A DNA stretch of 64,000 nucleotides from contig BROI01000014.1 of NCBI GenBank assembly GCA_027923505.1, forward strand, positions 558,001 through 622,000, written 5' to 3'. The DNA comes from Mayamaea pseudoterrestris (Eukaryota). The notes under the pieces were generated by a model that was given only the letters and a program-made list of their open reading frames with translations, searched no databases and was not told the DNA's origin. Within the stretch, counting starts at the first letter, position 1. The number at the start of each line of letters is the position of its first letter. Shown here one piece after another: positions 5,013 through 64,000 of this stretch. A program made the position numbers and the translations under genes.

Positions 5013-5100
5013 ATACAAGATGGAATGCCTGCCAAGTAAACATCTCGCTGCCATGCTATGGGTGAGATCTTCTCACCAGTCCCAGTCAGCCGCACCCATG
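5013..5100 (-). repeat. Solo degenerate fragment of palindrome repeat family B
   Basis: tacaagatggaatgcctg...ggtgagatcttctcaccagtccca aligns with tacaagatggaatgcctg...ggtgagaactgttcaccagtccca at ~50602-50673. Confidence 0.7.
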
Positions 5101-5362
5101 ATTTTGTTAATACAGTAGGCCTTGTTTTGCCATATATATTATGATTTATAGACGAAGTGGGGTTGAAGTCTCAGGTCTTGCAGGTCGTTTGGCAGGTTGC
5201 ATCCTTTTCACGATTGGATCAGTCCCGCATGTCAATCAAGGTGCCCGCGCCGCGCGCCGCGCCAACCTCACCTTCGCCTTGAAACAGACATCATGGATTC
5301 GCATGACTCTCGTTGTCGAGCCAGCGACTGTTCACTTGCCTTTAGCCCTTTTTCCCAATACA

Positions 5363-38795: not shown

Positions 38796-39039
38796 TCTAA
38801 AATGTTCACTTTCCCTTATTGCTGTAGATCATGAATGTCATTTCTGGAGGGCACTCACTAGCCCATGTTACATTTACGCACATCACCTTGCACGGGAATC
38901 TGAATTTGTAAGCCATATGTATGAAGTGATAGACAAGGTATACTTAATTGCAAAGTACCTTATATGGAATAAAGTTTATGCTGACTGTGAAAATTCAGCA
39001 ACCATAGCACAAGGATGGTGCTCTGATCCTTGGCAGTTA

Positions 39040-39480
39040 TCTGTCTAGGCAGACTGGTGAGAAGTTCTCACCAGTCACATTGCAGTCTACTGAGATACTA
39101 GCCAGGCATATTATCTTGTAGCACAGCTGGCATAATGATGTTAGCACCATTCTGGTGTATTCTGGGTGTATAAATGGCTTGCTGTAGGGGTGTTTGAATG
39201 TCAAGGCATCTGCCGGCTGAGACACCAGCAAGGCATACCATCTTGTAGCGCAGCTTGAATAATGATGTAGGCACCATTCTGGTGTGATATGAGTGTATAC
39301 TTGGATTGATGTAGGAGCGTTTGATTGTCATGGCATGTGTGGGCTGAGACTGGTGACAACCTGTCACCAATCACATTGCAGTCTACTGAGCCACCCACAA
39401 GGCATACCATCTTGTAGCGCAGACTGAATATCGATGTTGGCACTATTCTGGTGTGATTTGGGTGTATGCATGGCTTGTAA
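39040..39480 (+). repeat. Repeat family B, ~2.5 degenerate units at the left edge of the satellite
   Basis: gactggtgagaagttctcaccagtc palindrome at 39052-39076; variant at ~39348; ggcataccatcttgtagcgcag recurs. Confidence 0.85.
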
Positions 39481-42400
39481 TGCCACTTGAGGTGCTGAGG
39501 TGCACCCTTGTTGGATCTCACCATGGCATTCATGGTGATGGATACAGCAGTGCTACTGACCAACTTATGGCTTATCATGACAACAAACAAGATGTAAAAG
39601 ATATTGAAGGGCTCAGCAGGCAATGCTGACAATCCCTGCAGCCAAAAAGGGAATGCTAACCAGTGAGTTCAGGGACCCACCCAAATGGACAAGTCTATGA
39701 GCCCCATTCAATGTTAGAGTTCATGTTTGTTGTATTATGGGGTCTGGAGGCCATTTTGGAAGTCTCAATTGCCACTTGAGGTGCACTGCTAGCAGATCCA
39801 ACAAGTTGTTGGATCTGCTCAGTCTCACCATGGCATACATGGTGATGGATAGTACTGCAGTGCAACTGACCAACTTACGGCCCATCATGACATCTGTTTT
39901 GATGTGAAAGATATTGGAGGGCTCAGCAGGCAATGCTGATGATCCCTGCAGCCAAAAAGGGAGCAATGCTGGCACATTCAACCAGTTGTTGAATGTGCGG
40001 AGTTTCAGGGCATAGTGATGGCTTCCACACCCAATGGACAAGTCTATGAGCCCCATTCAATGTGCAAGTCCATGTTGGTTGTATTATGGGGTCTGGAGGC
40101 CATTTTGAAAGTCTCGCTAGCCACTTGAGGTGCACCTCTGGCAGATCCAACAAGTTGTTGGATCTGCTCAGTCTCACCATGGCATACATGGTGATGGATA
40201 CTGCAGTGCAACTGACCAACTTATGGCCCATCATGACAACTAATATGATGTGAAAGATATTGGAGGGCTCAGCAGGCAATGCTGATGATCCCTGCAGCCA
40301 AAAAGGGAGCAATGCTGGCACATTCAACCAGTTGTTGAATGTGCGGAGTTTCAGGGCATAGTGATGGCTTCCACACCCAAACGGATAAGTCTATGAGCCC
40401 CATTCAATGTTAGAGTCCATGTTTGTTGTATTATGGGGTCTGGAGGCCATTTTGGAAGTCTCACTTGCCACTTGAGGTGCACCGCTGGCAGATCCAACAA
40501 GTTGTTGGATCTGCTCAGTCTCACCATGGCATACATGGTGATGGATACTGCAGTGCAACTGACCAACTTATGGCCCATCATGACAACTAATATGATGTGA
40601 AAGATATTGGAGGGCTCAGCAGGCAATGCTGATGATCCCTGCAGCCAAAAAGGGAGCAATGCTGGCACATTCAACCAGTTGTTGAATGTGCGGAGTTTCA
40701 GGGCATAGTGATGGCTTCCACACCCAAACGGATAAGTCTATGAGCCCCATTCAATGTTAGAGTCCATGTTTGTTGTATTATGGGGTCTGGTGGCCATTTT
40801 GGAAGTCTCACTTGCCACTTGAGGTGCACCACTGGCAGATCCAACAAGTTGTTGGATCTGCTCAGTCTCACCATGGCATACATGGTGATGGATACTGCAG
40901 TGCAACTGACCAACTTATGGCCCATCATGACAACAAACATGATGTGAAAGATATTGGAGGGCTCAGCAGGCAATGCTGATGATCCCTGCAGCCAAAAAGG
41001 GAGCAATGCTGGCACATTCAACCAGTTGTTGAATGTGCGGAGTTTCAGGGCATAGTGATGGCTTCCACACCCAAATGGACAAGTCTATGAGCCCCATTCA
41101 ATGTTAGAGTCCATGTTTGTTGTATTATGGGGTCTGGTGGCCATTTTGGAAGTCTCACTTGCCACTTGAGGTGCACCGCTGGCAGATCCAACAAGTTGTT
41201 GGATCTGCTCAGTCTCACCATGGCATACATGGTGATGGATACTGCAGTGCAACTGACCAACTTATGGCCCATCATGACAACTAATATGATGTGAAAGATA
41301 TTGGAGGGCTCAGCAGGCAATGCTGATGATCCCTGCAGCCAAAAAGGGAGCAATGCTGGCACATTCAACCAGTTGTTGAATGTGCGGAGTTTCAGGGCAT
41401 AGTGATGGCTTCCACACCCAAATGGACAAGTCTATGAGCCCCATTCAATGTTAGAGTCCATGTTTGTTGTATTATGGGGTCTGGTGGCCATTTTGGAAGT
41501 CTCACTTGCCACTTGAGGTGCACCGCTGGCAGATCCAACAAGTTGTTGGATCTGCTCAGTCTCACCATGGCATACATGGTGATGGATACTGCAGTGCAAC
41601 TGACCAACTTATGGCCCATCATGACAACAAACATGATGTGAAAGATATTGGAGGGCTCAGCAGGCAATGCTGATGATCCCTGCAGCCAAAAAGGGAGCAA
41701 TGCTGGCACATTCAACCAGTTGTTGAATGTGCGGAGTTTCAGGGCATAGTGATGGCTTCCACACCCAAATGGACAAGTCTATGAGCCCCATTCAATGTTA
41801 GAGTCCATGTTTGTTGTATTATGGGGTCTGGAGGCCATTTTGGAAGTCTCACTTGCCACTTGAGGTGCACCGCTGGCAGATCCAACAAGTTGTTGGATCT
41901 GCTCAGTCTCACCATGGCATACATGGTGATGGATACTGCAGTGCAACTGACCAACTTATGGCCCATCATGACAACTAATATGATGTGAAAGATATTGGAG
42001 GGCTCAGCAGGCAATGCTGATGATCCCTGCAGCCAAAAAGGGAGCAATGCTGGCACATTCAACCAGTTGTTGAATGTGCAGAGTTTCAGGGCATAGTGAT
42101 GGCTTCCACACCCAAACGGATATGTCTATGAGTCCCATTCAATGTTAGAGTCCATGTTTGTTGTATTATGGGGTCTGGAGGCCATTTTGAAAGTCTCGCT
42201 AGCCACTTGAGGTGCACCTCTGGCAGATCCAACAAGTTGTTGGATCTGCTCAGTCTCACCATGGCATACATGGTGATGGATACTGCAGTGCAACTGACCA
42301 ACTTATGGCCCATCATGACAACAAACATGATGTGAAAGATATTGGAGGGCTCAGCAGGCAATGCTGATGATCCCTGCAGCCAAAAAGGGAGCAATGCTGG

Positions 42401-45400
42401 CACATTCAACCAGTTGTTGAATGTGCGGAGTTTCAGGGCATAGTGATGGCTTCCACACCCAAGCAAATAAGTCTATGAGCTCCATTCAATGTTAGAGTCT
42501 ATGTTTGTTGTATTATGGGGTCTGGAGGCCATTTTGGAAGTCTCACTTGCCACTTGAGGTGCACCGCTGGCAGATCCAACAAGTTGTTGGATCTGCTCAG
42601 TCTCACCATGGCATACATGGTGATGGATACTGCAGTGCAACTGACCAAATTATGGCCCATCATGACAACAAACATGATGTGAAAGATAATGGAGGGCTCA
42701 GCAGGCAATGCTGATGATCCCTGCAGCCAAAAAAGGAAGCAATGCTGGCACATTCAACCAGTTGTTGAATGTGCGGAGTTTCAGGGCATAGTGATGGCTT
42801 CCACACCCAAATGGACAAGTCTATGAGCCCCATTCAATGTTAGAGTCCATGTTTGTTGTATTATGGGGTCTGGAGGCCATTTTGGAAGTCTCACTTGCCA
42901 CTTGAGGTGCACCGCTGGCAGATCCAACAAGTTGTTGGATCTGCTCAGTCTCACCATGGCATACATGGTGATGGATACTGCAGTGCAACTGACCAACTTA
43001 TGGCCCATCATGACAACTAATATGATGTGAAAGATATTGGAGGGCTCAGCAGGCAATGCTGATGATCCCTGCAGCCAAAAAGGGAGCAGGGCTGGCACAT
43101 TCAACCAGTTGTTGAATGTGCGGAGTTTCAGGGCATAGTGATGGCTTCCACACCCAAACGGATATGTCTATGAGCCCCATTCAATGTTAGAGTCCATGTT
43201 TGTTGTATTATGGGGTCTGGAGGCCATTTTGGAAGTCTCACTTGCCACTTGAGGTGCACCGCTGGCAGATCCAACAAGTTGTTGGATCTGCTCAGTCTCA
43301 CCATGGCATACATGGTGATGGATACTGCAGTGCAACTGACCAACTTATGGCCCATCATGACAACAAACATGATGTGAAAGATATTGGAGGGCTCAGCAGG
43401 CAATGCTGATGATCCCTGCAGCCAAAAAGGGAGCAATGCTGGCACATTCAACCAGTTGTTGAATGTGCGGAGTTTCAGGGCATAGTGATGGCTTCCACAC
43501 CCAAACGGATAAGTCTATGAGCCCCATTCAATGTTAGAGTCTATGTTAGTTGTATTATGGGGTCTGGAGGCCATTTTGGAAGTCTCACTTGCCACTTGAG
43601 GTGCACCACTGGCAGATCCAACAAGTTGTTGGATCTGCTCAGTCTCACCATGGCATACATGGTGATGGATACTGCAGTGCAACTGACCAACTTATGGCCC
43701 ATCATGACAACTAATATGATGTGAAAGATATTGGAGGGCTCAGCAGGCAATGCTGATGATCCCTGCAGTCAAAAGGGAGCAATGCTGGCACATTCAACCA
43801 GTTGTTGAATGTGCGGAGTTTCAGGGCATAGTGATGGCTTCCACACCCAAATGGACAAGTCTATGAGCCCCTTTCAATGTTAGAGTTCATGTTTGTTGTG
43901 GGGGGGGCCATTTTGGAAGTCTCACTTGCCACTGTTTGGACAGGGTCACGAAAAAGCTGGCACATTCAACAAGTTGTTGAACAGGAGCAACTGTCCAACG
44001 TAAGTCTCACCAGACCTGGCAGATCACAAGTGGTGATGGATACTGCAGTGCAACTGACCAACTTATGGCCCATCATGACAACTAATATGATGTGAAAGAT
44101 ATTGGAGGGCTCAGCAGGCAATGCTGATGATCCCTGCAGCCAAAAAGGGAGCAATGCTGGCACATTCAACCAGTTGTTGAATGTGCGGAGTTTCAGGGCA
44201 TAGTGATGGCTTCCACACCCAATGGACAAGTCTATGAGCCCCATTCAATGTCAGAGTCTATGTTAGTTGTATTATGGGGTCTGGAGGCCATTTTGGAAGT
44301 CTCGCTTGCCACTTGAGGTGCACCGCTGGCAGATCCAACAAGTTGTTGGATCTGCTCAGTCTCACCATGGCATACATGGTGATGGATACTGCAGTGCAAC
44401 TGACCAACTTATGGCCCATCATGACAACTAATATGATGTGAAAGATATTGGAGGGCTCAGCAGGCAATGCTGATGATCCCTGCAGCCAAAAAGGGAGCAA
44501 TGCTGGCACATTCAACCAGTTGTTGAATGTGCGGAGTTTCAGGGCATAGTGATGGCTTCCACACCCAAATGGACAAGTCTATGAGTCCCATACAATGTTA
44601 CAGTCTATGTTAGTTGTATTATGGGGTCTGGAGGCCATTTTGGAAGTCTCACTTGCCACTTGAGGTGCACCGCTGGCAGATCCAACAAGTTGTTGGATCT
44701 GCTCAGTCTCACCATGGCATACATGGTGATGGATACTGCAGTGCAACTGACCACTTATGGCCCATCATGACATAAAACAAGAATTGAAAGATATTGGAGG
44801 GCTCAGCAGGCAATGCTGATGATCCCTGCAGCAAAAAAGGGGGCAGGGCTGGCACATTCAACCAGTTGTTGAATGTGCGGAGTTTCAGGGCATAGTGATG
44901 GCTTCCACACCCAAATGGACAAGTCTATGAGCCCCATTTACTGTTCAAGTCCATGTTTGCTGTATTATGGGGTCTGGAGGCCATTTTGGAAGTCTCGCTT
45001 GCCACTTGAGGTGCACCGCTGGCAGATCCAACAAGTTGTTGGATCTGCTCAGTCTCACCATGGCATACATGGTGAAGGATACTGAGGTGCAACTGACCAA
45101 CTTATGGCCCATCATGATATGATACATATATTAAAGATATTGGAGGGCTCAGCAGGCAATGCTGATGATCCCTGCAGCCAAAAAGGGAGCAATGCTGGCA
45201 CATTCAACCAGTTGTTGAATGTGCGGAGTTTCAGGGCATAGTGATGGCTTCCACACCCAAATGGACAAGTCTATGAGCCCCATTCAATGTTAGAGTCCAT
45301 GTTATTGGTTGTATTTTGGGATCTGCAGACCATTTCGAAAGTCTCACTTGCCACTTGAGGTGCACCGCTGGCAGATCCAGCAAGTTGTTGGATCTGCTCT

Positions 45401-48400
45401 GTCTCGCCATGCGTACATGGTGATGGATACTGAGGTGCAACTGACCGCCTTATGGCCCATCATGACAACCAACCTATTTGAAATATATTGGAGGGTTCAG
45501 CAGGCTATGCTGATGATCCCTGCAGCCACAAAGGGAGCAGGGCTGGCACATTCAACCAGTTGTTGAATGTGCTGAGTCTCAGGGCATAGTGATGGCTTCC
45601 ACACCCCATTGGACAAGTCTATGAATCCCATTTACAATTACAGTCCCTGTTAGGTGTATTATGGGGTCTGGAGGCCATTTTGGAAGTCTCACTTGCTAAC
45701 TTGAGGTGCACTGCTGGCAGATCCAACAAGTTGTTGGATCTGCTCAGTCTCTCCATGGCGTACAAGATAATGGATAATGAGGAGCAACTGACCAACTTAT
45801 GGCCCATCATGACATAAAACATGATATGAAAGATATTGCAGGGCTCAGCAGGCAATGCTGATGATCCCTGCAGCCACAAAGGGAGCAGGGCTGGCACATT
45901 CAACCAGTTGTTGAATATGCTGAGTCTCAGGGCATAGTGATGGCTTCCACACCAAAAAAAACAAGTCTATGAGTCCCATGCACTGTTAAAGTCCATGTTT
46001 ATTGTATTATGGGGTCTGGAGGCCATTTTGGAAGTCTCACTTGCCACTTGAGGTGCACCGCTGGCAGATCCAACAAGTTGTGGGGTCAGTTCAGTCTCAC
46101 CATGGCATACATGGTGATGAATACTGAGGTGCAACTGACCAACTATGGCCCATCATGACAACAAACATGATATGAAAGATATTGGAGGGCTCAGCAGGCA
46201 ATGCTGATGATCCCTGCAGCCACAAAAGGAGCAGGGCTGCCACATTCAACCAGTTGTTGAATGTGCGGAGTCTCAGGGCATAGTGATGGCTTCCACGCCC
46301 CAATGGACAAGTCTATGAGTCCCTTTCACTGTTACAGTCCATGTGCGTTGTATTATGGGTCTGCAGGCCATTTTGGAAGTCTCACTTGCCACTTGAGGTG
46401 CACTGCTGGCAGATCCAACAAGTTGTTGGATCTGCTCAGTCTCACCGTGGCATACATGGTGAAGGATACTGAGGTGCAACTGACCAACTCATGGCCCATC
46501 ATGACAACAAACATGATATGAAAGATATTGGAGGGCTCAGCAGGCAATGCTGATGATCCCTGCAGCCACAAAGGGAGCAGGGCTGGCACATTCAACCAGT
46601 TGTTGAATGTGCTGAGTCTCAGGGCATAGTGATGGCTTCCACACCCAAAAGAACAAGTCTATGAGTCCCATTCACTGTTACAGTCCATGTTTATTGTATT
46701 ATGGGGTCTGGAGGCCATTTTGGAAGTCTCACTTGCCACTTGAGGTGCACTGCTGGCAGATCCAACAAGTTGTGGGGTCAGTTCAGTCTCACCATGGCAT
46801 ACACGGTGATGGATACTGAGGTGCAATTGACCAACCTATGGCCCATCATGACAACAAACCTATTTGAATATATTGGAGGGCTCAGCAGGCAATGCTGATG
46901 ATCCCTGCAGCGAAAAAGGGGGCAGGGCTGGCACCTTCAACCAGTTGTTGAATGTGCAGAGTCTCAGGGCATAGTGATGGCTTCCGCACCCAAAAGAACA
47001 AGTCGATGAGTCCCATTCACTGTTACAGTTCATGTTAGTTGTATTATGGGGACTGAAGGCCATTTTGGAAGTCTCACTTGCCACTTGAGGTGCACCACTG
47101 GCAGATCCAACAAGTTGTAGGGTCGGCTCAGTCTCACCATGCATACATGGTGATGGATACTCAGGTGCAACTGACCAACTATGGCCCATCATGACAACAA
47201 ACATGATATGAAAGATATTGCAGGGCTCAGCAGGCAATGCTGATGATCCCTGCAGCCACAAAAGGAGCAGGGCTGGCACATTCAACCAGTTGTTGAATGT
47301 GCGGAGTCTCAGGGCATAGTGATGGCTTCCACACCCAATTGGTCAAGTCTTTGAGTCCCAATCACTGTTCAAATTTATGTTTATTGTATTATGGGGTCTG
47401 GAGACCATTTTAGAAGTCTCACTTGCCACTTGAGGTGCACCACTGGCAGATCCAACAAGTTGTTGGATCTGCTCAGTCTCACCGTGGCATACATGGTGAA
47501 GGATACTGAGGTGCAACTGACCAACTCATGGCCCATCATGACAACAAACATGATATGAAAGATATTGGAGGGCTCAGCAGGCAATGCTGATGATCCCTGC
47601 AGCCACAAAGGGAGCAGGGCTGGCACATTCAACCAGTTGTTGAATGTGCGGAGTCTCAGGGCATAGTGATGGCTTCCACACCCCAATGGACAAGTCTATG
47701 AATCCCATTCACTGTTACAGTCCATGTTAGTTGTATTATGGGGTCTGCAGGCCATTTTGGAAGTCTCACTTGCCACTTGAGGTGCACTGCTGGCAGATCC
47801 AACAAGTTGTTGGATCTGCTCAGTCTCACCGTGGCATACATGGTGAAGGATACTGAGGTGCAACTGACCAACTCATGGCCCATCATGACAACAAACATAA
47901 AAAGAAACATATTGGAGGGCTCAGCAGGCAATGCTGATGATCCCTGCAGCCACAAAGGGAGCAGGGCTGGCACATTCAACCAGTTGTTGAATGTGCTGAG
48001 TCTCAGGGCATAGTGATGGCTTCCACACCCCATTGGACAAGTCTATGAGTCCCATGCACTGTTAAAGTCCATGTTTATTGTATTATGGGGTCTGGAGACC
48101 ATTTTAGAAGTCTCACTTGCCACTTGAGGTGCACTGCTGGCAGATCCAACAAGTTGTTGGATCTGCTCAGTCTCACCGTGGCATACATGGTGAAGGATAC
48201 TGAGGTGCAACTGACCAACTCATGGCCCATCATGACAACAAACATAATATGAAAAATATTGGAGGGCTCAGCAGGCAATGCTGATGATCCCTGCAGCCAC
48301 AAAGGGAGCAGGGCTGGCACATTCAACCAGTTGTTGAATGTGCGGAGTCTCAGGGCATAGTGATGGCTTCCACACCTAAAAGAACAAGTCTATGAGTCCC

Positions 48401-50216
48401 ATTCACTGTTACAGTCCATGTTTGTTGTATTATGGGGTCTGCAGGCCATTTTGGAAGTCTCACTTGCCACTTGAGGTGCACTGCTGGCAGATCCAACAAG
48501 TTGTTGGATCTGCTCAGTCTCACCATGGCATACATGGTGAAGGATACTGAGGTGCAACTGACCAACTTATGGCCCATCATGACAACAAACATGATATGAA
48601 AAGGATTGGGAGGGCTCAGCAGGCAATGCTGATGATCCCTGCAGCCACAAAGGGAGCAGGGCTGGCACATTCAACCAGTTGTTGAATGTGCGGAGTCTCA
48701 GGGCATAGTGATGGCTTCCACACCTACAAGAACAAGTCTATGAGTCACATTCACTGTTACAGTCCATGTTTGTTGTATTATGGGGTCTGCAGGCCATTTT
48801 GGAAGTCTCACTTGCCACTTGAGGTGCACTGCTGGCAGATCCAACAAGTTGTAGGGTCGGCTGAGTCTCACCATGGCATACACGGTGATGGATACTGAGG
48901 TGCAATTGACCAACTATGGCCCATCATGACAACAAACATGATATGAAAGATATTGCAGGGCTCAGCAGGCAATGCTGATGATCCCTGCAGCCACAAAAGG
49001 AGCAGGGCTGGCACATTCAACCAGTTGTTGAATGTGCGGAGTCTCAGGGCATAGTGATGGCTTCCACACCCCAATGGACAAGTCTACAAGTCCCATTCAC
49101 TGTTACAGTCCATGTTTTTTGTATAATGGGGTCTGCAGGCCTTTTTGGAAGTCTCACTTGCCACTTGAGGTGCACTGCTGGCAGATCCAACAAGTTGTTG
49201 GATCTGCTCAGTCTCACCATGGCATACATGGTGAAGGATAATGAGGTGCAACTGACCAACTCATGGCCCATCATGACAACAAACATGATATGAAAGATAT
49301 TGGAGGGCTCAGCTGGTAATGCTGATGATCCCTGCAGCCGTTGTTGAATGTGCGGAGTCTCAGAGCATAGTGATGGCTTCCACACCCCAATGGACAAGTC
49401 TTTGAGTCCCATTTACTCGTAAAGTCCATGTTAGTTGGATTATGGGGTCTGGAGTCCATTTTTTAAGTCTCACTTGCCACTTAAGGTGCACTGCTGGCAT
49501 ATCTGGCAGATCCAATAAGTTGTTGGATCTTCTCAGTCTCACCATGGCATACATGGTGATGGATACTGAGGGGCAACTGACCAACTTATGGCCCATCATG
49601 ACAACAAATATGATATGAAAGATATTGGTGGGCTCAGCAGGCAATGCTGATGATCCCTGCAGCCAAAAAGGGAGCAGGGCTGGCACATTCAACCAGTTGT
49701 TAAATGTGCGGAGTCTCAGGGCATAGTGATGGCTTCCACGCCCCAATGGACAAGTCTTTGAGTCCCATTTACTGTTCAATTCCATTTTAGTTGGATTATG
49801 GGGTCTGGAGACCATTTGGAAGTCTCACTTGCCACTTGAGGTGCACCACTGGCAGATCCAACAAGTTGTTGGATCGGCTGAGTCTCACCGTGGCATACAT
49901 GGTGAAGGATACTGAGGTGCAACTGACCAACTCATGGCCCAACATGACAACAAACATAATATGAAAGATATTGGAGGGCTCAGCAGGCAATGCTGATGAC
50001 CCCTGCAGCCACAAAGGGAGCATGGCTGGCACATTCAACCAGTTGTTGAATGTGCGGAGTCTCAGGGCATAATGATGGCTTCCACACCCCAATGGACATG
50101 TCTATGAGTCCCATTCACTGTTACAGTCCATGTTTGTTGTATTATGGGGTCTGGAGGCCATTTTTAAAGTCTCACTTGCCACTTGAGGTGCACCGCAGGC
50201 AGATCTAACAAGTTGT
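39481..50216 (+). repeat. Tandem satellite array (family A), ~31 units of 347 bp
   Basis: Landmark gcagatccaacaagttgttggatctgc at 39792, 40141, 40488, 40835, 41182... mostly with a 347-bp period, last partial copy at ~50199; the repeated 107-aa ORFs in the track reflect the same period. Confidence 0.98.
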
Positions 50217-50307
50217 CTAAACCATAGCCAGCAAAAAATGGATGGAAATGGACTACAGGGGTAGGGGTAGGAGGCCACACTTCAGCACCATGAGAATGGT
50301 TACAGTA

Positions 50308-50550
50308 TGTGCCAGCAGTGCACCTTTTTTGGCAGCAGGGATCATTAGTATTGCCTGCTAAGCCATCCAATTTCTGTCAATTCATTTCAACAAATGTTTT
50401 TTGTCATGATGCGCCAATGAGTTGGTCAGCTGCACCTCAGTAAACCATGTAGGTAGCCACAGTGAGACTTAGCAGGTTCAACAAGTTTTTGAGTCTAGAC
50501 TGCCAGAATGGCCTGCAAGTTTAAAAGTCTAGACTGCCAGAATGGCCTGC
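50308..50550 (-). repeat. Inverted degenerate family A segment with a 25-bp direct duplication (50492-50516, 50526-50550)
   Basis: gtgccagca...ggcagcagggatcattagtattgcctgctaagcc...tgtcatgatgcgcc...gttggtcagctgcacctcagta is the reverse complement of the satellite unit; agtctagactgccagaatggcctgc occurs twice. Confidence 0.85.
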
Positions 50551-50559
50551 GGGCCAGCG

Positions 50560-50710
50560 ATAGACACCAGTATGGTGGCAACATCCTTATTTGGGCTGCT
50601 CTACAAGATGGAATGCCTGACTGGTGCCTCAAGACTCTGCAGTGCCACTGGTGAGAACTGTTCACCAGTCCCAACCAGCAGCAGCCATATTTTTTCACAA
50701 GACAAAATGA
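50560..50710 (-). repeat. Inverted family B unit at the right edge of the satellite
   Basis: Reverse complement reads ...gactggtgaacagttctcaccagt...ggcattccatcttgtagagcag, matching the B units at 39052 and 58394. Confidence 0.85.
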
Positions 50711-52772: not shown

Positions 52773-53699
52773 CTAAATAGTCGCCAGCGCATCAAAGTCA
52801 ACGTCCATCTCCGCCGGATGCTCATTGTAAAGCGCCTCGTACAAAAAATCACCAATGTCCGGATCGTCCAAGTCATCGTCCCACGCATCATCACTATCCA
52901 CCACCGCCGTTTCATCCGACGCCAGTTCCGACGAGTCCACAGACCTATCATTCGCATTCAATGTATCAGCAGCATTGTTGTAGATCTTCTTCTCAGCTGG
53001 AAGAATAGATTATATTAGAGGAATGGCTGGTAGTGCGCATTCCATAGATTGTGATCAAGATCAATCTGCGGTTGGTCTGGAGATCATAGACTGCTGATAC
53101 ATGGGGCGAATGAGGTGATCTGGAACTCGGTCTTCTTCATAGTCGTCGAGCGAAAAGGGAGCTTCTCTAGGTGAAAGTGGAGGAGACACGGCAGGAGTTT
53201 TGTCTGGTGTGCAAATGATGCTTGGGGATGGTGGTTCGTCAGCAACAATGGGAAGAGCCTTCTTGTTTGCCTTCTCTAGCTCGGCAATGCGCTTCATCGC
53301 GGCCGCATACTTGGCCTGTGACTCGGTCAACGCCACTTCAAGTTCTTCAATCCGCATGCGAGTCTTTTCGCGAGAAGCCGCTGCACTCTCACGATTCCTT
53401 ACGCGTCTCGCTTGTTTCCTCCACTGCGCTAGCTGGGCCTTGGTCATGGGAACGTCAGGCTCATAGCGTGAGCCTAGCTTGACTCCTGGAATCGCAGCAA
53501 GCGAAGCCAGCGGAGAGCAGTCGTCAGCTTCTTCCGGACTAGTTTTATGCTTCTTGTTCGTCGCAGTCGTTTCGGCTTGCTTGCTGGAGCGCAGTTTGTG
53601 CTTGCGATTCATCCTGGCTGCCGCTGGGTCGTCCGAAGGTAGCATGGGAAGCGAAAGGACAGTCTCCGGATGAGCAATCTCGTTGGTCATGGTTGTCAT
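52773..53699 (-). CDS. bZIP transcription factor, HAC1/XBP1-like; unspliced CDS 53699-53061 (212 aa), predicted spliced CDS 53699-53069 + 52996-52773 (284 aa)
   Basis: Basic region WRKQARRVRNRESAAASREK plus leucine zipper; downstream same-frame acidic ORF 52773-52961 is reachable only by removing a 72-nt segment containing three stops. Confidence 0.85.
52997..53068 (-). other. Predicted IRE1-type unconventional intron (72 nt) between two CNG|CNGN stem-loops
   Basis: 5' hairpin agaccaa[CCG|CAGA]ttgatct (loop 53071-53065); 3' hairpin ttcttc[CAG|CTGA]gaagaa (loop 52999-52993); no GT donor; the join G+CT restores the reading frame. Confidence 0.75.
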
Positions 53700-53759
53700 G
53701 ATTTGCTTTTTCTTCCTCCTCGAGTGGAGAGTTTGTGAGAGGTGACTGAAACTGCCAAG

Positions 53760-53875
53760 TGGCGAAACGTGATGGCGCGCCCGGAAGTCGACGATCGAAG
53801 TGCACGATTGAGATGACGTCACACGATTTGCCACGCGTCCCTGCAACGAGGCTCATGACCTGCAACGTGGAACCT
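53760..53875. promoter_or_regulatory. Shared divergent promoter with bZIP-type ACGT/CCACG elements
   Basis: TGACGTCA at 53814-53821, GCCACG at 53830-53835, ACGTGG at 53865-53870, AAACGTGA at ~53765. Confidence 0.5.
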
Positions 53876-53960
53876 TGTGGCGTTGCTCGCGAAACAGAAC
53901 GATCACATCGCGAGGCTCGTTGATCATTCGCGTTTCTTGCATGCATCCGGAATCCTGACC

Positions 53961-54452
53961 ATGACGACCACCTCTACCAGCGACAACCCAGAATCCAAGG
54001 CGGAGGCTCGGAAAAAGAGAAAGGCAATTTTAATACAGCAGCGTCAGGAAGAACTGCAAGGGACGGAACGACACGATGACGGTGGAAACGAAGATAGAAG
54101 CCGATCATTGTCCATTGCTTCTGCTTCTGTCGCATCTGATTCGGATGGAGCCTCACAACAAGACGATTGGGATTCTTTAAGCAAGAAACAAAGAAAGGTA
54201 CAAGTCAGATATGATCCTGCTATACCCATGGACAAGGAGGAGCTTGCGAACTGGAGGCGACAGCATAGAAAGGTGCGGAATCGCGAGTCGGCAGCAGCCA
54301 GTCGTCAACGAATACGAAGTCGCATTACCGAGTTGGAAGGCGAGGTGGAGGAATGGAAGGATAAATACAATTCTGCGATGGAACGACTCAAGACTATGAG
54401 AGAGGCGAAATCAAATGGGGATCGCAAAAAGGGCAGCGCTGAGAATCGTTGA
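53961..54452 (+). CDS. bZIP transcription factor, paralogue of the adjacent divergent bZIP
   Basis: RYDPAIPMDKEELANWRRQHRKVRNRESAAASRQRIRSRITELE, versus RYEPDVPMTKAQLAQWRKQARRVRNRESAAASREKTRMRIEELE in the neighbour. Confidence 0.9.
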   Translation: MTTTSTSDNPESKAEARKKRKAILIQQRQEELQGTERHDDGGNEDRSRSLSIASASVASDSDGASQQDDWDSLSKKQRKVQVRYDPAIPMDKEELANWRRQHRKVRNRESAAASRQRIRSRITELEGEVEEWKDKYNSAMERLKTMREAKSNGDRKKGSAENR

Positions 54453-58356: not shown

Positions 58357-58990
58357 TTTTTGTCTTCACAAAGGCAGTGCAGCTGCTGGCTGAGACTGGT
58401 GAACAGTTATCATCAATCACATCGCAGTCCACTGAGACACAAGCCAGTTTCATTTGGGTTGATTTGGGCATACACATGGCTCAAGCGCGGCAGCTGCTGG
58501 CTGAGACTGGTGTCAAGTTATCACATCACCAATCACATTGTAGTCCACTGAGACTCCCGCCAGGCATACCATCTTGTAGCGCACCTGAAATAAGGATGTT
58601 AGCACCATTCTGGCTTGATTTGGGCATACACATGGCTCAAGGTATGGGCATTTGAATGTCAAGGCATCTGCGGGCTGAGACTGGTGAGAAGTTCTCACCA
58701 ATCACATTGCAGTCTACTGAGACACCAGCCAGGCATACCATCTTGTAGCGCAGACCGAATAAAGATGTTGGCAGCATTCTGGTATGATTTGGGTGTATAT
58801 ATGGCAGGATATATGGGCAACTGAAAGTCGCGGCATCTGTGGGCTGAGACTGGTGACAACTTGTCACCAATCACATTGCAGTCTACTAGGGCATCCACCA
58901 GGCATACCATCTTGTAGCGCAGTCTGAATAATGATGTTTACACCATTCTGGCGTGATATGGGTGTATAATTGGCATGATAAATGGGTAAA
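58357..58990 (+). repeat. Short tandem cluster of repeat family B (~4 units, full units ~170-175 bp)
   Basis: gagactggtg at ~58392, 58503, 58677, 58846; caatcacattgcagtctact and ggcataccatcttgtagcgca recur; matches 39040-39480. Confidence 0.9.
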
Positions 58991-59138
58991 TGAATGGGCA
59001 TCTGCGGGAATCTTTGTTTGTACCGGTACGACGTCTGACGCAAAGGATAGGATGAGACATCGTGAGAATCTTTTATGGCATCTGCTCTGCATAACCTTGC
59101 AAGCTATTTGACAGTGCTTGTTGCTATTTGCAAATAAG

Positions 59139-60182: not shown

Positions 60183-63100
60183 TTATGTGTTAACTTCTGC
60201 TTCTCTTTTCTTGGAATGCTTCTTTTCAAACTTGCAAACTCTAGCGTTGCCGTGCAAACTTAGCACGTTTAACCAATCGTGTTGCCGCGGGTCGAGACGA
60301 TCGTTAACACTCTTCACTTCAACCAGCATTGTTTCCACTCGCACCAGCAAATTATTATGAAGCAGTTGTAGACGCTCGGGAAGCGATATTTCCACGGCAC
60401 CCCCGAGGGTTTGTGGAGACGACGATGTCGAACTGGTTGCTGCCCATGAGCGATTCCGCTTGAACGAGTTTGTTGCTCCCGCATCACCCATAGAGCAACC
60501 AAGAAAGTCTTCGTCGCCTATGATCATTTGAGAACGTTTGGCCTGTATCTCGCTCTGAGACTCGACTGAAAATGACTCTCCAACAAAGTCTCCTAAGTCG
60601 ATCGTATTAAAGGAGTCGTCGTCGTTGTCGCAAGCGGAGGCTCTGATCAGCAGGAGATCTGGCATGCCGCCTCGAAAGTGACGATAGTCAAAGCACATGC
60701 ATTTGAATATTGAAGCCAGGCACTTGCCGCCCAATCCTGCTGCAATGAGCGACAATGTTCGTACTCGAGATATGTCGTCAACGGACGTCGGATCTCGATG
60801 ACCGATGCTCTGCATATATGTATGGCGGGCGACGACTGAATCGTACACCAAGTTCGATATATCCTGGTCTGTCATACATTCAAGCTTGCTAAGAAGAGCG
60901 TCAATTTTCGCCCGACGAGTCTGATAAAAGCTGTATGCCTGGAGGCCTAATTGGCCGTGACCTACGAGCAAATCCAAAGGCGACCCTTGGAAAGGTGATA
61001 TGTGAATAGTTGTATGCATCGAGTTCAAGCATATTCTACGTCCACAGCCCCAGCCCGCACCAAGTATCGGGGCTGCGCAAATGATTCGGAACAGAGAATG
61101 CACATGCGAGCCTTCGTCATGAAATCCTCGCCAGCCACCTCGCGAGTCGCCTTGCGGAAGCCGCCCCGTGTGGTAATGTTCCATCGCATGCTCTTCCACA
61201 TTCTGCGCAATCGGACTGTCTCTATCTTCGAACCCTATGTAGGCGCAGCGGAAGCCTGGGCCGTTTTCGTCGTTTACGATAGCATTAGCGACAGCCGTGT
61301 CAATTGTGGGATTCCACTCTGAGTATTTGTCAGGACGTTGCTTATGTGATGCCGCGCCATGGAGACGCAAACCAAGTTCAATTACCTCAAGGCTTGCAAT
61401 GTCTCTTAAAATTTTAGTCAGCGGTTGCTTAAGTGGTTTCGCAAGCTCCCTGGCTGAAGAAAACGGGATCGATGCGTTCGCAATGACATGGGCAACAGCA
61501 TGGTCAAAGAAAGCTTTTACTGACGCGACCTGACGGGCTTTCAACTCTTCTATTTCCGCTGGGATGCCTTTCAAGACCTGTCTTGCTCGATTTAGTAAGT
61601 GCCGATAATTTATAAACAACCGCACAAAGGCCTTGCCGCGAGTGCGTCTCGACAACAAGAGGGTAGCCAGCTCCTTGACATCCATTACCGGTATATGCGG
61701 GATGACAGACATCGTCGCGCAGCTAAACATCTTTCCAAAAAGTAAAGTTTCCAAAGCGTTAGCTGCCAGCGAGTGGTTCACCTTTTCTAGAATTGGAATA
61801 GCATCCCACAAAACGTACGACAAACTTGCATCCCACCACAAATGCCTCAGCCATGGCCTTCGCAGTTTACCAGCCAGTTCCGGACATCCGATTCTTTCAT
61901 TCTGTAATAAGAGAACGTGCATTGCGACAACGGCGACAATGGCAAGGATCTTGTGACAAGCGGAAGCAGGTGCTTCGCTGTAGATTGCAATGTCGCGTTC
62001 TATACAACTTAAAAGCAATTTGCTAACTCGATCGCAAGGCTTCCACACTGCGTGCACAAAGTCTTCTCGTCCGCATCGATGTGTTAAGTTTAAAACATCA
62101 ACGTTGTGCTCATTTATCTGTTCGAAATTGCCATTGCCAAGAGGTTGCATGCCACGAGCGAGCCGCCGTTCATTATATCTCAGTGCGTTCTCCAGCTCCA
62201 ACAGGAAATCGACATGGGCACGTAATTCTAAGCTGCCTTCAAACGCCACAAAGGATGCATGCGTGTCGAATATTTGATCATCAACATTCTTGTCGGTTTC
62301 CTCGAAAGGCATGCATCGAAACGACTTCTGAAATGGATATGAAGACAAACCAAATCGACTTTTCAAGCCAGGATACTCTGCAAAGTGCCAAGCATGGATA
62401 CCTGGAAATCGAACGCCAGCAATGGGAGAGGGCTTGGAAACGTTCAACAGACTTCTCCAACCGTTCGTTCCGTCACCACGCATGCTACCCGGTCCGCTTG
62501 TGGCGCACAAGAAGAGACGCGTGCAACGAGCCAGTGTGCGATGGGGCTCTGCGCGAAGACGAAAGCCAGCCAATAATTGGTGCATGGCGCCGTTTCCAAG
62601 TATTTGTCTGATTCTCGTCTCAACATGAGCAGTCTCGGCGACACTTGGTTCGTGTTGCGGATTTGAGCTCTTCAACACTACTCGTGCTAAACTTTGGAGG
62701 ATCACCGAGTCGACGTGCTGTTTTACGGGAAGATACGATGAGCTGCTCGCTCCAGGAAACAGAGGTCGCTGACTCTTCATTTGCTTCCAAATCGCCGTCC
62801 CTGGTGGGCAAGGTGCCATGCGCCCTCGCCGACTACCCGCCATTCGCAGCAAGACCTGTCCTCTCTCGGGATTGCTAAGAAGTGAGTCATCGACAGTCTT
62901 GCCACATTCCTCTTCTGATGAGAATCCACGAATAAATCCCTTTTCCAACAGCCGCTTTAGAACGTCACATAGATCTTGCAACGCCGACAAATGTTTGTCG
63001 ACTGCCGCAGAATCTGGCGCATCGGAGGACGATATTTGCAAATCCTTCGTAGCATAATACCTCCTATAGACGTCATCGAGTCGAAACCAAAAACCCTTTC

Positions 63101-64000
63101 TGTAAAAGAGACGACAGTACAAATGTAGGCTTCTGTCATCGTCTTCCATTTCCAAACAGGGCGTCTGTTGTAAATGTTGTGCTGGAACGACAGCAGGCAA
63201 ACTTTCACACTCAGCATTGCCTGTTAATTTGTCGCGACAAAGTATACACGTGCACACCCATGAATCGTGAACGTCGTCGTCAACAGGCAGGATATATCGT
63301 CGCGCCAACGCCAGCACCACTGACAAGTCATCTCCGCGTTCCCACTGAAAGAGCGTGTCATGCTTCGGTCCCACGCGCCAACGCGCGTCACGCATAATGA
63401 TCCAGCAAATTTCGGCCAAGTTTTGTAGGTAGGCAGATGTGAGTGGCGTGATGGGATGCTGATGAGTGGATGCAGGTGATGTTGTAGCGGTCGTTGTTGC
63501 TGCTGCTGACAAGCTGCAAATTGCTGATTCCAAAGAATCTTCTTCCAATTCAGGGTCAGCTACTAATTGATCCATTGCCGGCGTTGCCATTGGTTGGTGC
63601 GCTGGTGTTGGCGTCTTGTCGGCTCGAAACACGAGCTGATCGACCAGAAACTGTTTGTCTTTCTCCAATGCTAGGAATGATGATGGCCCTGTCGTCGAGT
63701 GCTTCGGACCTGGAGTTATTAGACTAATGAGTGGTTCATCGTCCAGATCTTCGTCATCCGAAGTGAATGATGTTTTCGTATGCAATGTCTGCATCTGCAT
63801 ATCTTTCTTCGAATTAGCGGACGCAATACTGACATCCGTGCCTGCATCATGGTCATTACTCCATTCAGTGTTCATCGCGTTCGCTTGCTGAGATAGTGAT
63901 GCGCCCGATGCAGCTGCTGCTGGTTTCATGTAGAGAAACTCGACCGAGGAATCGTCATCATTGACTGACAGTAAGTCGTCCTTTGCGTCATCGCCATGAT
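60183..64000 (-). CDS. FAN1: Fanconi-associated nuclease 1 (VRR-NUC), 5' end probably outside window
   Basis: LYCRLFYRKGFWFR, LLSRRTRGKAF.RL, NVEEHAMEHY, GWRGFHDEGS, DYRHFRGGMPDLLL, LVEVKSVNDRLDPRQHDW; frame stays open upstream of ATG 63929 to the window edge. Confidence 0.92.
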   Translation of the reverse strand, partial: HGDDAKDDLLSVNDDDSSVEFLYMKPAAAASGASLSQQANAMNTEWSNDHDAGTDVSIASANSKKDMQMQTLHTKTSFTSDDEDLDDEPLISLITPGPKHSTTGPSSFLALEKDKQFLVDQLVFRADKTPTPAHQPMATPAMDQLVADPELEEDSLESAICSLSAAATTTATTSPASTHQHPITPLTSAYLQNLAEICWIIMRDARWRVGPKHDTLFQWERGDDLSVVLALARRYILPVDDDVHDSWVCTCILCRDKLTGNAECESLPAVVPAQHLQQTPCLEMEDDDRSLHLYCRLFYRKGFWFRLDDVYRRYYATKDLQISSSDAPDSAAVDKHLSALQDLCDVLKRLLEKGFIRGFSSEEECGKTVDDSLLSNPERGQVLLRMAGSRRGRMAPCPPGTAIWKQMKSQRPLFPGASSSSYLPVKQHVDSVILQSLARVVLKSSNPQHEPSVAETAHVETRIRQILGNGAMHQLLAGFRLRAEPHRTLARCTRLFLCATSGPGSMRGDGTNGWRSLLNVSKPSPIAGVRFPGIHAWHFAEYPGLKSRFGLSSYPFQKSFRCMPFEETDKNVDDQIFDTHASFVAFEGSLELRAHVDFLLELENALRYNERRLARGMQPLGNGNFEQINEHNVDVLNLTHRCGREDFVHAVWKPCDRVSKLLLSCIERDIAIYSEAPASACHKILAIVAVVAMHVLLLQNERIGCPELAGKLRRPWLRHLWWDASLSYVLWDAIPILEKVNHSLAANALETLLFGKMFSCATMSVIPHIPVMDVKELATLLLSRRTRGKAFVRLFINYRHLLNRARQVLKGIPAEIEELKARQVASVKAFFDHAVAHVIANASIPFSSARELAKPLKQPLTKILRDIASLEVIELGLRLHGAASHKQRPDKYSEWNPTIDTAVANAIVNDENGPGFRCAYIGFEDRDSPIAQNVEEHAMEHYHTGRLPQGDSRGGWRGFHDEGSHVHSLFRIICAAPILGAGWGCGRRICLNSMHTTIHISPFQGSPLDLLVGHGQLGLQAYSFYQTRRAKIDALLSKLECMTDQDISNLVYDSVVARHTYMQSIGHRDPTSVDDISRVRTLSLIAAGLGGKCLASIFKCMCFDYRHFRGGMPDLLLIRASACDNDDDSFNTIDLGDFVGESFSVESQSEIQAKRSQMIIGDEDFLGCSMGDAGATNSFKRNRSWAATSSTSSSPQTLGGAVEISLPERLQLLHNNLLVRVETMLVEVKSVNDRLDPRQHDWLNVLSLHGNARVCKFEKKHSKKREAEVNT

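What the first reader, a model, noticed from the sequence alone, without database searches (positions are those of the whole stretch)
39481..50216. 347-bp satellite is an ancient dimer of ~170-177-bp monomers, each centred on a palindrome preserved by compensatory changes
Seen in sequence: each unit has P1 gcagatccaacaa-g-ttgttggatctgc (13-bp perfect arms, e.g. 40141) and P2 gcacattcaac-cagtt-gttgaatgtgc (11-bp arms, e.g. 40318), spaced alternately 177 and 170 bp. P1 and P2 are alignable and differ by paired substitutions in both arms (gcaG/Ctgc vs gcaC/Gtgc; atCc/gGat vs atTc/gAat). Their downstream flanks are also homologous (agtctca..ggcata..gtgatgg). A third hairpin, tcaccatg-gcata-catggtga, follows P1. 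Inference: dyad symmetry rather than primary sequence is being maintained, either by selection (cruciform, protein dimer site, nicking origin or structured RNA) or by arm-to-arm correction. The period is close to nucleosome repeat length, as in centromeric satellites. Described Phaeodactylum centromeres are instead low-GC and not satellite-based, so a centromeric role here would be new.
Basis: partly seen in the sequence, partly recalled or inferred. Interest (0 to 1): 0.72.

Follow-up and report, generated by a model that had tools for sequence, protein, structure and literature searches.

The report
Palindrome-bearing dimeric satellite in a diatom
A 10.7-kb non-coding array of a 347-bp repeat, built from two related half-units that each carry a palindrome, is one local block of a repeat family that also occurs elsewhere in a pennate diatom genome and looks methylated, and it most likely spreads selfishly rather than serving as a centromere.

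Summary
A 347-bp unit is repeated about 31 times at 39482-50216, and palindromes P1 and P2 alternate at 177 and 170 bp. The two halves share a significantly homologous core of about 70-90 bp in the same register. The remaining 108 bp of each half align only weakly.

P1 and P2 differ at 5 of 27 positions. Four of these form two mirrored, complementarity-preserving pairs (p about 0.003 under independent substitution). In contrast, all 13 distinct variants that arose inside the array are one-sided.

New context:
- The array abuts a second palindrome-bearing repeat of about 169 bp (S169), which occurs at four places in the window.
- The array is bracketed by an inverted repeat of about 400 bp.
- Thousands of contigs in two public runs match these repeats.
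- CpG observed/expected is 0.12 in the array against 1.07-1.09 in flanking DNA, a methylation-decay signature.
- There are no transposon genes, no Rfam match and no low-GC tract in the window.
- The organism is a raphid pennate diatom; Phaeodactylum is unverified and probably wrong.

Best reading: a methylated, selfish dimeric satellite. Its palindromes probably persist through one-step arm-to-arm template switching and through preferential amplification of intact copies. A centromere role is untested and unlikely (about 0.1).

The parts
39482..50216 (+). Satellite array: 31 units of about 347 bp. The first unit is truncated (289 bp), one unit is aberrant, and a terminal 39-bp stub ends inside P1.
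40141..40167 (.). Example of palindrome P1 (13-bp perfect arms, 1-nt centre). It recurs every 347 bp: 22 exact copies plus 7 near-exact.
40318..40344 (.). Example of palindrome P2 (11-bp arms, 5-nt loop). There are 25 exact copies plus 4 with one mismatch. It lies 177 bp after P1 and 170 bp before the next P1.
40174..40194 (.). Third hairpin (8-bp arms, 5-nt loop), present only in half A. Two indels of 3 and 4 nt relative to half B create it and account exactly for the 177 versus 170 length difference.
40120..44654 (+). Young, homogenised block of the array. Units are 97-99% alike except the aberrant unit.
43928..44307 (+). Aberrant 380-bp unit. The P1 core is replaced by a different core variant whose palindrome has only 8-bp arms, with a further 9-bp inverted repeat around it. 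Its right arm resembles that of the old inverted copy.
44655..50177 (+). Older, heterogeneous block. Neighbouring units are 88-98% alike. It holds all the one-sided palindrome variants, and some variants recur two units apart.
39048..39477 (+). Three direct copies of the ~169-bp S169 repeat, directly abutting the array. Each full copy carries a palindrome of the GGTGA(G/C)AA-n-TT(C/G)TCACC type. The middle copy lacks a 42-bp palindrome module bounded by a CTGAGAC-like direct repeat.
50295..50510 (-). Inverted, diverged copy of unit positions 15-213 (half A plus the start of P2).
   Evidence: (E 6.5e-38)
50564..50688 (-). Inverted S169 copy. Together with 50295-50510 it mirrors the left junction (39320-39660), so an inverted repeat of about 400 bp brackets the array.
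58373..58992 (+). About four more direct S169 copies, between an HMG-box gene and a PhyH-family gene.
5014..5101 (-). Solo S169 fragment (profile positions 5-93) just upstream of the ankyrin-repeat ORF that starts at 5141.

Best explanation
This is a non-coding satellite array in a gene-dense part of a raphid pennate diatom chromosome.

Shown:
- The repeat unit is a dimer of two diverged, nucleosome-sized monomers (177 + 170 bp).
- The array is one local block of a palindrome-bearing repeat family, comprising the 347-bp satellite and the neighbouring ~169-bp S169 repeat, that has more copies than this window holds.
- The family is CpG-depleted, which implies long-standing methylation.
- The array has a young homogenised block and an older decayed block, the usual pattern of growth by unequal exchange or slippage.

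Inferred:
- The palindromes are kept at the level of lineages that amplify, not at each copy.
- Individual copies decay by ordinary one-sided mutation.
- The variants that found new subfamilies have intact dyads, for two possible reasons. First, replication template switching between the arms can copy one arm onto the other in a single event, which gives mirrored 'compensatory' changes and inward stem extension. Second, hairpin or cruciform-prone copies may preferentially trigger the fork stalling and breaks that amplify arrays.
- No service to the host cell is required.
For: Array, dimer and palindromes.

Non-coding: 347 is not a multiple of 3, and stops occur in all six frames of tandem consensus units, with a longest open run of 128 codons. 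Rfam gives only two sub-threshold hits.

Gene-dense surroundings with ordinary cellular genes and no transposon proteins: 30 ORFs scanned against Pfam.

More copies than this window holds: 21,150 of 555,133 contig records of run X1 and 11,567 of 560,787 of run X2 lie on 39040-40140 at 80% likeness or more. The one contig that spans the unique S169-to-array junction has depth 249.5. Summed depth over the repeats is about 5x10^4 to 8x10^6. The tool warns that this is not a copy number.

Methylation-decay signature:
- CpG observed/expected is 0.12 in the array and 0.25 in S169, against 1.09 in ORFs and 1.07 in other non-coding DNA of the window.
- TpG+CpA observed/expected is 1.77 against 1.20, while GpC is 1.11.
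- The four surviving consensus CpG positions show 14% transitions against 2% at other sites.

Young and old blocks.

Lineage-level maintenance of the palindromes:
- Differences fixed between types are 2 mirrored pairs plus 1 single. Variants inside the array are 0 mirrored and 13 single (Fisher p 0.025; p 0.006 if the S169 allele pair is added).
- The family majority in the runs restores a perfect 9-bp-arm S169 palindrome where the window copy at 39350 is broken. At 39360-39361 the reads show CC to GT in 2.48-2.72 of 2.84 million summed depth in X1.
- The third hairpin arises from two matching indels.

Template switching is a documented one-step source of multibase compensatory changes and of arm homogenisation or extension (PMC8794818, abstract and introduction read; PMC8604942 and PMC13100816, abstract starts in the search listing only).
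Against: The number of independent events is small: three mirrored swaps, chosen after seeing them.

The contrast between old and young changes is also what purifying selection for a host function would give. P2 is among the least variable 27-nt stretches within the array (4th percentile).

No data here show hairpin or cruciform formation, breaks, methylation or amplification directly.

Without the whole genome, the number and placement of arrays per chromosome are unknown, so a chromosomal role is not excluded.

Some of the contigs laid may be sequencing-error variants of a very deep repeat.
Confidence: 0.55

Rival explanations
1. Transposon-derived repeat. The S169 and 347-bp modules are the internally repetitive terminal inverted repeats of a foldback-like or other DNA element, or are Helitron- or MITE-derived. 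The palindromes are recognition hairpins for its transposase or Rep protein. The array is an expanded arm.
For: - The array is bracketed by collinear inverted copies of 'S169 + half A' (39320-39660 against the reverse complement of 50290-50706).
- S169 copies are dispersed in four intergenic places, including a solo fragment.
- The repeats are CpG-depleted, as silenced mobile DNA typically is.
- Many variant contigs exist in the runs.
Against: - No transposase, Rep/helicase or integrase domain occurs in any of the 30 ORFs scanned.
- The only shared flanking word is a 7-mer. By my own estimate it would be expected by chance about one time in four.
- No CTRR-type end follows the hairpins (the motif definition is recalled).
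- The inverted arms are only about 72-78% alike and are very unequal in length.
- A model in which the palindromes are junctions of head-to-tail MITEs would require each element to have mismatched ends while the junctions stay perfect.
Confidence: 0.2
2. Centromeric satellite. One array per chromosome binds CENH3, and the dyad symmetries supply non-B DNA that helps specify the centromere.
For: - The monomers are nucleosome-sized, the organisation is dimeric, and strong dyad symmetry is present. These features are enriched at many satellite centromeres (PMC5889037, abstract and passages read).
- At 11.7 kb, this is the largest gene-free interval in a window that otherwise has genes about every 2 kb.
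Against: - Described diatom centromeres are short, low-GC and lack repeats (10.1101/096016, abstract and passages; 10.1101/2021.11.10.468027, passages).
- Array GC is 0.48, equal to the window average.
- The related S169 repeat is scattered between genes.
- No chromatin data exist here.
Confidence: 0.1
3. An array of binding sites for a dimeric DNA-binding protein, such as a silencing, insulator or transcription factor, with each palindrome being one site.
For: - The palindromes have perfect dyads.
- The 9-nt centre ACAAGTTGT is shared by P1 and by the S169 family consensus, although the two repeats are otherwise not detectably homologous.
- Summed contig depth in the runs peaks at the palindromes and the 37 bp upstream of them.
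Against: - Sequence-specific dimer sites should conserve bases rather than swap them in a mirrored fashion.
- P2 breaks the shared centre (position 12).
- No protein data exist.
Confidence: 0.08
4. Source of a structured RNA or of small RNAs from hairpin transcripts.
For: A single unit folds better than shuffles on either strand: z -3.8 and -3.5 as RNA, with 0 and 1 of 100 shuffles folding as well.
Against: - The same hairpins fold equally well as DNA (z -4.15) and on both strands, so nothing points to RNA.
- No Rfam family reaches threshold.
- Mirrored changes are G:C to C:G and C:G to T:A, with no G:U intermediates seen.
Confidence: 0.05

Closest known systems
Dimeric higher-order alpha satellite of primates (alternating A-type and B-type ~171-bp monomers; recalled, not checked in a call)
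   Same: Nucleosome-sized monomers of two alternating types form a unit of about 340-347 bp. Units are far more alike (97-99% in the young block) than the two monomers within a unit. The monomer types differ most sharply in one short box.
   Different: There is no sequence relationship. Here the diagnostic box is a long perfect palindrome whose type-specific differences are mirrored. Centromeric location and protein binding are untested. The array is only 10.7 kb and lies among genes.
Dyad-symmetry-rich satellites (Kasinathan and Henikoff 2018, PMC5889037; Tribolium satellites, PMC13081366 and PMC4675708, abstract starts in the search listing only)
   Same: Tandem repeats carry dyad symmetries predicted to form hairpins or cruciforms. 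Monomers of about 170 bp also occur in euchromatic arms in Tribolium.
   Different: The cited survey concerns dyads under 10 bp at known centromeres. Here the arms are 11-13 bp, the location is unknown, and the host is a diatom. My searches found no described satellite for diatoms.
Template-switch creation and maintenance of hairpins (Monttinen and Loytynoja 2022, PMC8794818)
   Same: Mirrored multibase changes keep a stem perfect, and a stem has been extended by matching insertions on both sides.
   Different: That work concerns RNA genes under selection. Here the hairpins sit in non-coding satellite DNA. The mechanism is inferred from pattern only.
Described diatom centromeres (Phaeodactylum tricornutum, 10.1101/096016; Fistulifera solaris, 10.1101/2021.11.10.468027)
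   Same: Short gene-free intervals in compact chromosomes.
   Different: Those are low-GC (about 36-42% or lower) and lack repeats. This array has 48% GC and is purely repetitive.
Foldback-type transposons with internally repetitive inverted termini (recalled)
   Same: Inverted bracket built of tandem sub-repeats, with arms of very unequal length.
   Different: No target-site duplication, coding partner or second copy was seen.

Membership tests
Satellite DNA | Long head-to-tail tandem array of a fixed unit | tested here: met
   Period 347, 30.4 copies, 91% matches. Unit lengths are 345-349 bp for 27 of 31 units.
Satellite DNA | Non-coding | tested here: met
   Stops occur in all six frames of tandem consensus units, with a longest open run of 128 codons. 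The only ORF of 150 aa or more inside the array has no Pfam hit.
Satellite DNA | Concerted evolution (units more alike within blocks than between) | tested here: met
   Units 2-14 are 97-99% alike; units 15-30 are 88-98% alike.
Satellite DNA | Present at more copies than this one locus | tested here: inconclusive
   21,150 of 555,133 contigs (X1) and 11,567 of 560,787 (X2) lie on the stretch. Depth is not a copy number, and no genome is held to map loci.
Higher-order (dimeric) repeat | Two alternating monomer types that are homologous to each other | tested here: met
   The core is significant (E 3.9e-6 and 2.5e-9, same register). Lags 170 and 177 stand out. Outside the core, only the global alignment is marginal (1 of 1000 shuffles in two schemes, 51 of 1000 in a third).
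Higher-order (dimeric) repeat | Identity between whole units exceeds identity between monomers within a unit | tested here: met
   Units are 88-99% alike. Between the two monomers, only the ~70-nt core aligns significantly, and the 108-bp remainders align only weakly.
Centromeric satellite | CENH3/CENP-A occupancy | not testable with these tools
   No chromatin data are available.
Centromeric satellite | One array per chromosome | not testable with these tools
   No whole genome is held for the window.
Diatom centromere as described so far | Low-GC tract (many 100-bp windows at or below 32% GC; at least 500 bp of low GC) without repeats | tested here: not met
   Array GC is 0.480. The lowest 500-bp GC in the whole window is 0.404. 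Only isolated low-GC spots of 100-160 bp occur. Definition taken.
DNA transposon with terminal inverted repeats (foldback or MITE-like) | Terminal inverted repeats | tested here: inconclusive
   Inverted collinear flanks of about 400 bp at about 72-78% identity. The element ends are not defined.
DNA transposon with terminal inverted repeats (foldback or MITE-like) | Target-site duplication | tested here: inconclusive
   The only shared word is a 7-mer in the two 70-bp flanks, at unequal distances from the repeats. This is compatible with chance.
Helitron-derived repeat | Hairpin about 10-12 nt upstream of a CTRR 3' end; Rep/helicase gene in autonomous copies (definition recalled) | tested here: not met
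   No CTRR in the 22 nt after P1 or P2. No Rep or helicase domain in the window.
Known structured RNA family | Match to an Rfam covariance model at gathering score | tested here: not met
   Two hits at 24.3 and 19.9 bits against gathering scores of 86 and 77.

The most novel reading that the evidence does not exclude
In this diatom the 347-bp palindrome-bearing dimeric satellite marks the centromeres, with one methylated array per chromosome. Its dyad symmetry is preserved because non-B DNA helps recruit CENH3. This would be the first satellite-based centromere in diatoms, and it would contrast with the low-GC, repeat-free centromeres of Phaeodactylum and Fistulifera.
Probability: 0.1. Interest if true: 0.8.

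Novelty: new member of a known kind. Interest (0 to 1): 0.42.

Why it matters
Satellite DNA has hardly been described in diatoms. Four literature searches listed no paper whose title concerns a diatom satellite.

This locus gives a compact case with three useful properties:
- The dimeric origin of the unit is still legible.
- Old differences between palindromes are mirrored while young ones are not. That contrast can be turned into a genome-wide test of structure-preserving mutation against selection.
- The repeats alone carry a strong CpG-decay signature in an otherwise CpG-normal, gene-dense region, which makes them a natural reporter for repeat-targeted methylation in diatoms.

If the arrays turned out to lie one per chromosome, the current picture of diatom centromeres would need revising.

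Tried and rejected
- Whole genome: none is held for this window, so genome-wide distribution could not be mapped.
- Earlier notes of this scan: three look-ups, by place and by two sequences, returned nothing.
- Sequencing runs: no RNA holder is listed.
- In X4 and X5 two bins (39484-39520 and 39632-39668) had no cover. No conclusion is drawn from this.
- Within P1 and P2 no variant appears among the 40 difference rows shown, but 126 rows were not shown, so no claim of invariance is made.
None of the 119 matches the satellite or S169 profile at E 1e-3 or better, so they are chance hits.
- Rfam: only two sub-threshold microRNA-like hits.
- Homology between S169 and either satellite half: not significant (z 0.7-1.6; 63-291 of 1000 shuffles as good). 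The S169 profile also finds nothing inside the array.
- Lags 42 and 49 looked raised in the self-match profile, but they contain no dense matching stretch. I treat them as noise.
- MITE-junction model for the palindromes: rejected by reasoning, because each element would need mismatched ends while every junction stays perfect.
- Helitron and target-site-duplication checks: negative or inconclusive.
- Low-GC centromere-type tract: none in the window.
- Species identity: two protein searches name only other raphid pennates, at 59-70% identity. Phaeodactylum could be neither confirmed nor strictly excluded, because the window's own proteins are shown without source.
Full report
WHAT IS THERE

Tandem Repeats Finder reports a 347-bp period with 30.4 copies at 91% matches over 39678-50216. 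Cutting at a conserved 16-nt anchor gives 31 units from 39482 to 50177, plus a 39-bp stub that ends at 50216 in the middle of a palindrome. Of the 31 units, 27 are 345-349 bp long. The first is truncated (289 bp), one is 316 bp, one is 355 bp, and one is an aberrant 380-bp unit.

Palindrome P1 (27 nt, 13-bp arms, 1-nt centre) occurs 22 times exactly and 7 more times with 1-4 mismatches. Palindrome P2 (11-bp arms, 5-nt loop) occurs 25 times exactly and 4 more times with one mismatch. A third hairpin (8-bp arms) follows P1. A single unit folds better than dinucleotide shuffles as DNA (z -4.15) and as RNA on either strand (z -3.8 and -3.5). The three hairpins dominate every fold.

IS THE UNIT A DIMER?

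The evidence for a dimer is good for the core and weak for the rest.
- The two halves share a core of about 70 nt. The local score is 44, against 16.0 +/- 2.3 in 500 shuffles.
- Profiles built from 28 units of each half find the other half's consensus at E 3.9e-6 and 2.5e-9 for a 0.128-Mb search space. Both hits start at position 9-10 of the half, so the register is the same.
- In an assumption-free self-match profile of the array, lags 170 and 177 are the strongest after 347 and 346 (0.333 and 0.320 against 0.249 +/- 0.017).
- Outside the core, each half has exactly 108 bp. These align only weakly. The global score is reached by 1 of 1000 shuffles under two scoring schemes and by 51 of 1000 under a third. 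Local scores are not significant.
- The 7-bp length difference between the halves is exactly two indels of 3 and 4 nt. Together they create the third hairpin in half A.

I accept the dimer reading, with the caveat that only the core is firmly homologous.

ARE ARM CHANGES PAIRED?

P1 and P2 differ at 5 of 27 positions. Positions 4/24 (G:C to C:G) and 7/21 (C:G to T:A) are mirrored and stay complementary. Position 12 is unpaired. Five random substitutions on P1 keep at least 12 of 13 pairs in 0.29% of 2,000,000 trials.

An old inverted copy beside the array (see below) carries G:C at 4/24 and T:A at 7/21. This is an intermediate combination in which both pairs are again complementary. I read this from the alignment.

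The picture inside the array is the opposite. There are 13 distinct variants of P1 or P2, 9 in P1 and 4 in P2, and all lie in the older right-hand block. All 13 are one-sided and none is compensated. Counting pairs formally gives 2 pairs changed on both sides. Every other departure is a broken or one-sided pair. As that tool warns, its shuffle control does not correct for relatedness.

Comparing fixed differences with within-array variants gives 2 mirrored and 1 single against 0 mirrored and 13 single (Fisher p 0.025). Within the array P2 is among the least variable 27-nt stretches (4th percentile), but P1 is ordinary (29th percentile). Another stretch, unit positions 140-180, is just as conserved.

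So dyad symmetry is preserved between old monomer types but not in recent copies.

SURROUNDINGS

The array is not isolated.
- Directly upstream lie three copies of a different repeat of about 169 bp, which I call S169 (39048-39477).
- About four more copies lie at 58373-58992.
- One inverted copy lies at 50564-50688.
- A solo fragment lies at 5014-5101.

S169 also carries a central palindrome. In the window it occurs as two perfectly paired alleles that differ by a mirrored G:C/C:G swap, at 39054 and 58681 against 58850. Several decayed versions also occur. Adding this swap to the contrast above gives Fisher p 0.006. The middle copy of the upstream trio lacks a 42-bp module that holds the palindrome, and a CTGAGAC-like direct repeat bounds that module.

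S169 is not detectably homologous to either satellite half (z 0.7-1.6). It shares the 9-nt palindrome centre ACAAGTTGT with P1. That word occurs 30 times in the window against 0.7 expected: 29 times in the array and once in S169 at 58856. It is also the centre of the S169 majority sequence in the runs. I leave this shared centre unexplained.

Immediately after the array there is an inverted, diverged copy of unit positions 15-213 (50295-50510; E 6.5e-38). Together with the inverted S169 copy it is collinear with the left junction at 39320-39660. The array is therefore bracketed by an inverted repeat of about 400 bp, built of 'S169 + half A'.

The aberrant unit at 43928-44307 has a different core, with an 8-bp-arm palindrome and an extra outer inverted repeat. 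Its right arm resembles that of the old inverted copy, which suggests a patch from another family variant.

All 30 ORFs scanned against Pfam are either ordinary cellular genes or have no hit. None is a transposase, Rep protein or integrase. Genes flank the repeats closely. The 11.7-kb repeat block is the largest gene-free interval in the window.

ELSEWHERE

No whole genome is held for the window. Seven listed runs from three studies hold part of 39000-41000. I laid four of them on 39040-40140 at 80% likeness or more.
- 21,150 of 555,133 contig records of X1 and 11,567 of 560,787 of X2 lie on this 1.1-kb stretch.
- 540 of 812,177 records of X4 and 286 of 9,369,044 of X5 also lie on it.
- One X1 contig spans the unique S169-to-array junction, with 3 differences in 186 nt and a depth of 249.5.
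- Summed depth over the repeats runs from about 5x10^4 to 8x10^6. It is highest in S169 and, within the satellite, highest at the two palindromes and the 37 bp before them.

The tool states that summed depth is not a copy number, and some contigs may be error variants of a very deep repeat. I conclude only that both repeats exist in many more copies and variants than this window holds.

The family majority differs from the window's S169 copy at 39360-39361 in a way that restores a perfect 9-bp-arm palindrome. This fits the idea that master copies are intact and individual copies decay.

A metagenome scan with a degenerate palindrome pattern returned 119 loci. None matches either repeat profile.

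A CHROMATIN-LEVEL SIGNAL IN THE SEQUENCE

- CpG observed/expected is 0.12 in the array, 0.25 in S169 and 0.10 in the old inverted copy.
- In the same window it is 1.09 in long ORFs and 1.07 in other non-coding DNA.
- TpG+CpA is 1.77 in the array against 1.20 outside it, and GpC is normal at 1.11.
- The consensus keeps only two CpG dinucleotides. Their four positions show 14% transitions across units, against 2% at other sites.

This is the classical footprint of long-standing CpG methylation confined to the repeats. In Phaeodactylum, loss of DNMT5a depletes methylation and de-represses young transposable elements (PMC9998398, abstract).

ORGANISM

For two proteins, the window's own protein cluster has one member on one 917,834-bp contig. 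The nearest named relatives, at 59-70% identity, are Amphora, Fistulifera, Seminavis, Epithemia, Nitzschia, Cylindrotheca and Pseudo-nitzschia. The best unnamed hits reach 79-80%. The window therefore comes from a raphid pennate diatom.

Phaeodactylum is not confirmed. The small number of holders, the single-contig record, and a repeat family matched by so many contigs argue against it. It is not strictly excluded, because the window's own proteins are shown without source.

HOW IT MOST LIKELY WORKS

Shown:
- It is a dimeric, non-coding, CpG-depleted satellite with copies beyond this locus.
- It has a young homogenised block (units 2-14, 97-99% alike) and an older block (units 15-30, 88-98% alike).
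- It lies among ordinary genes.

Inferred:
- The array grew by unequal exchange or slippage.
- Palindromes are maintained in the lineages that amplify rather than in every copy.
- Two processes would do this without any host function. The first is replication template switching between arms. It makes mirrored multibase changes and extends stems in one event (PMC8794818, abstract and introduction read; PMC8604942 and PMC13100816, abstract starts in the search listing only). The second is preferential amplification of hairpin-prone copies.

I give this reading 0.55.

Rivals:
- A foldback-like or other mobile element whose arms are these repeats: 0.2. The inverted bracket and the dispersed S169 copies speak for it. 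The lack of any transposon gene, target-site duplication or second example speaks against it.
- A centromeric satellite: 0.1. Monomer size, dyads and the gene-free interval fit (PMC5889037, passages). Array GC of 0.48 and the scattered S169 copies do not. Described diatom centromeres are low-GC and lack repeats.
- Binding sites for a dimeric protein: 0.08.
- A structured RNA or small-RNA source: 0.05.

COMPARISON AND NOVELTY

The locus works like a dimeric higher-order satellite, much as primate alpha-satellite dimers do (recalled). It also resembles dyad-rich satellites in other eukaryotes. It meets the defining features of satellite DNA that I could test.

It does not meet the only sequence criterion available for diatom centromeres. 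The two decisive centromere features, CENH3 occupancy and one array per chromosome, could not be tested.

Four literature searches listed no paper whose title concerns a diatom satellite. Supplements were not consulted.

I rate it a new member of a known kind, of moderate interest. The contrast between old and young palindrome changes and the CpG-decay signal are useful additions. The centromere suggestion remains speculation.

Noticed in passing
window 695-3229 (+) and 60183-63929 (-): Two structure-specific nuclease genes lie in the same window as the palindromic array. One is MUS81-like (ERCC4 plus the EME1/MUS81 C-terminal domain). The other is a FAN1-like protein with a VRR-NUC domain. 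This is probably coincidence.
   Followed up: no
window 39178-39308: The middle S169 copy lacks a 42-bp module that contains the palindrome. A CTGAGAC-like direct repeat bounds the module, which looks like a slippage deletion or a small insertion module.
   Followed up: partly
window 50482-50549: A 34-bp tandem duplication (91% alike) sits between the inverted satellite copy and the inverted S169 copy. Each copy holds the 10-nt perfect palindrome AGTCTAGACT.
   Followed up: no
window 39801-50216 and 58856-58864: P1 and the S169 palindrome share the 9-nt centre ACAAGTTGT, although the two repeats are otherwise not detectably homologous. It could be a common protein site, common origin of the palindrome module, or chance.
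   Followed up: partly
runs X4 and X5 laid on window 39040-40140: Two runs labelled as other organisms, from the same study as X1, hold S169-like contigs at a relatively higher share than satellite-like contigs. They could be related species sharing the repeat or carry-over between libraries. This was not resolved.
   Followed up: no
window 53061-53846 (-) and 53877-54452 (+): Two divergently oriented ORFs, 30 bp apart, each carry a bZIP domain.
   Followed up: no
window 16165-17325 (-): This ORF has a cytidine/deoxycytidylate deaminase domain just above the Pfam cut-off and a weaker, sub-threshold match to an AID/APOBEC-like deaminase family.
   Followed up: no
window 2597-2822: A 114-bp tandem repeat (2 copies, 84% matches) lies inside the MUS81-like ORF. 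It is in frame, since 114 is a multiple of 3.
   Followed up: no
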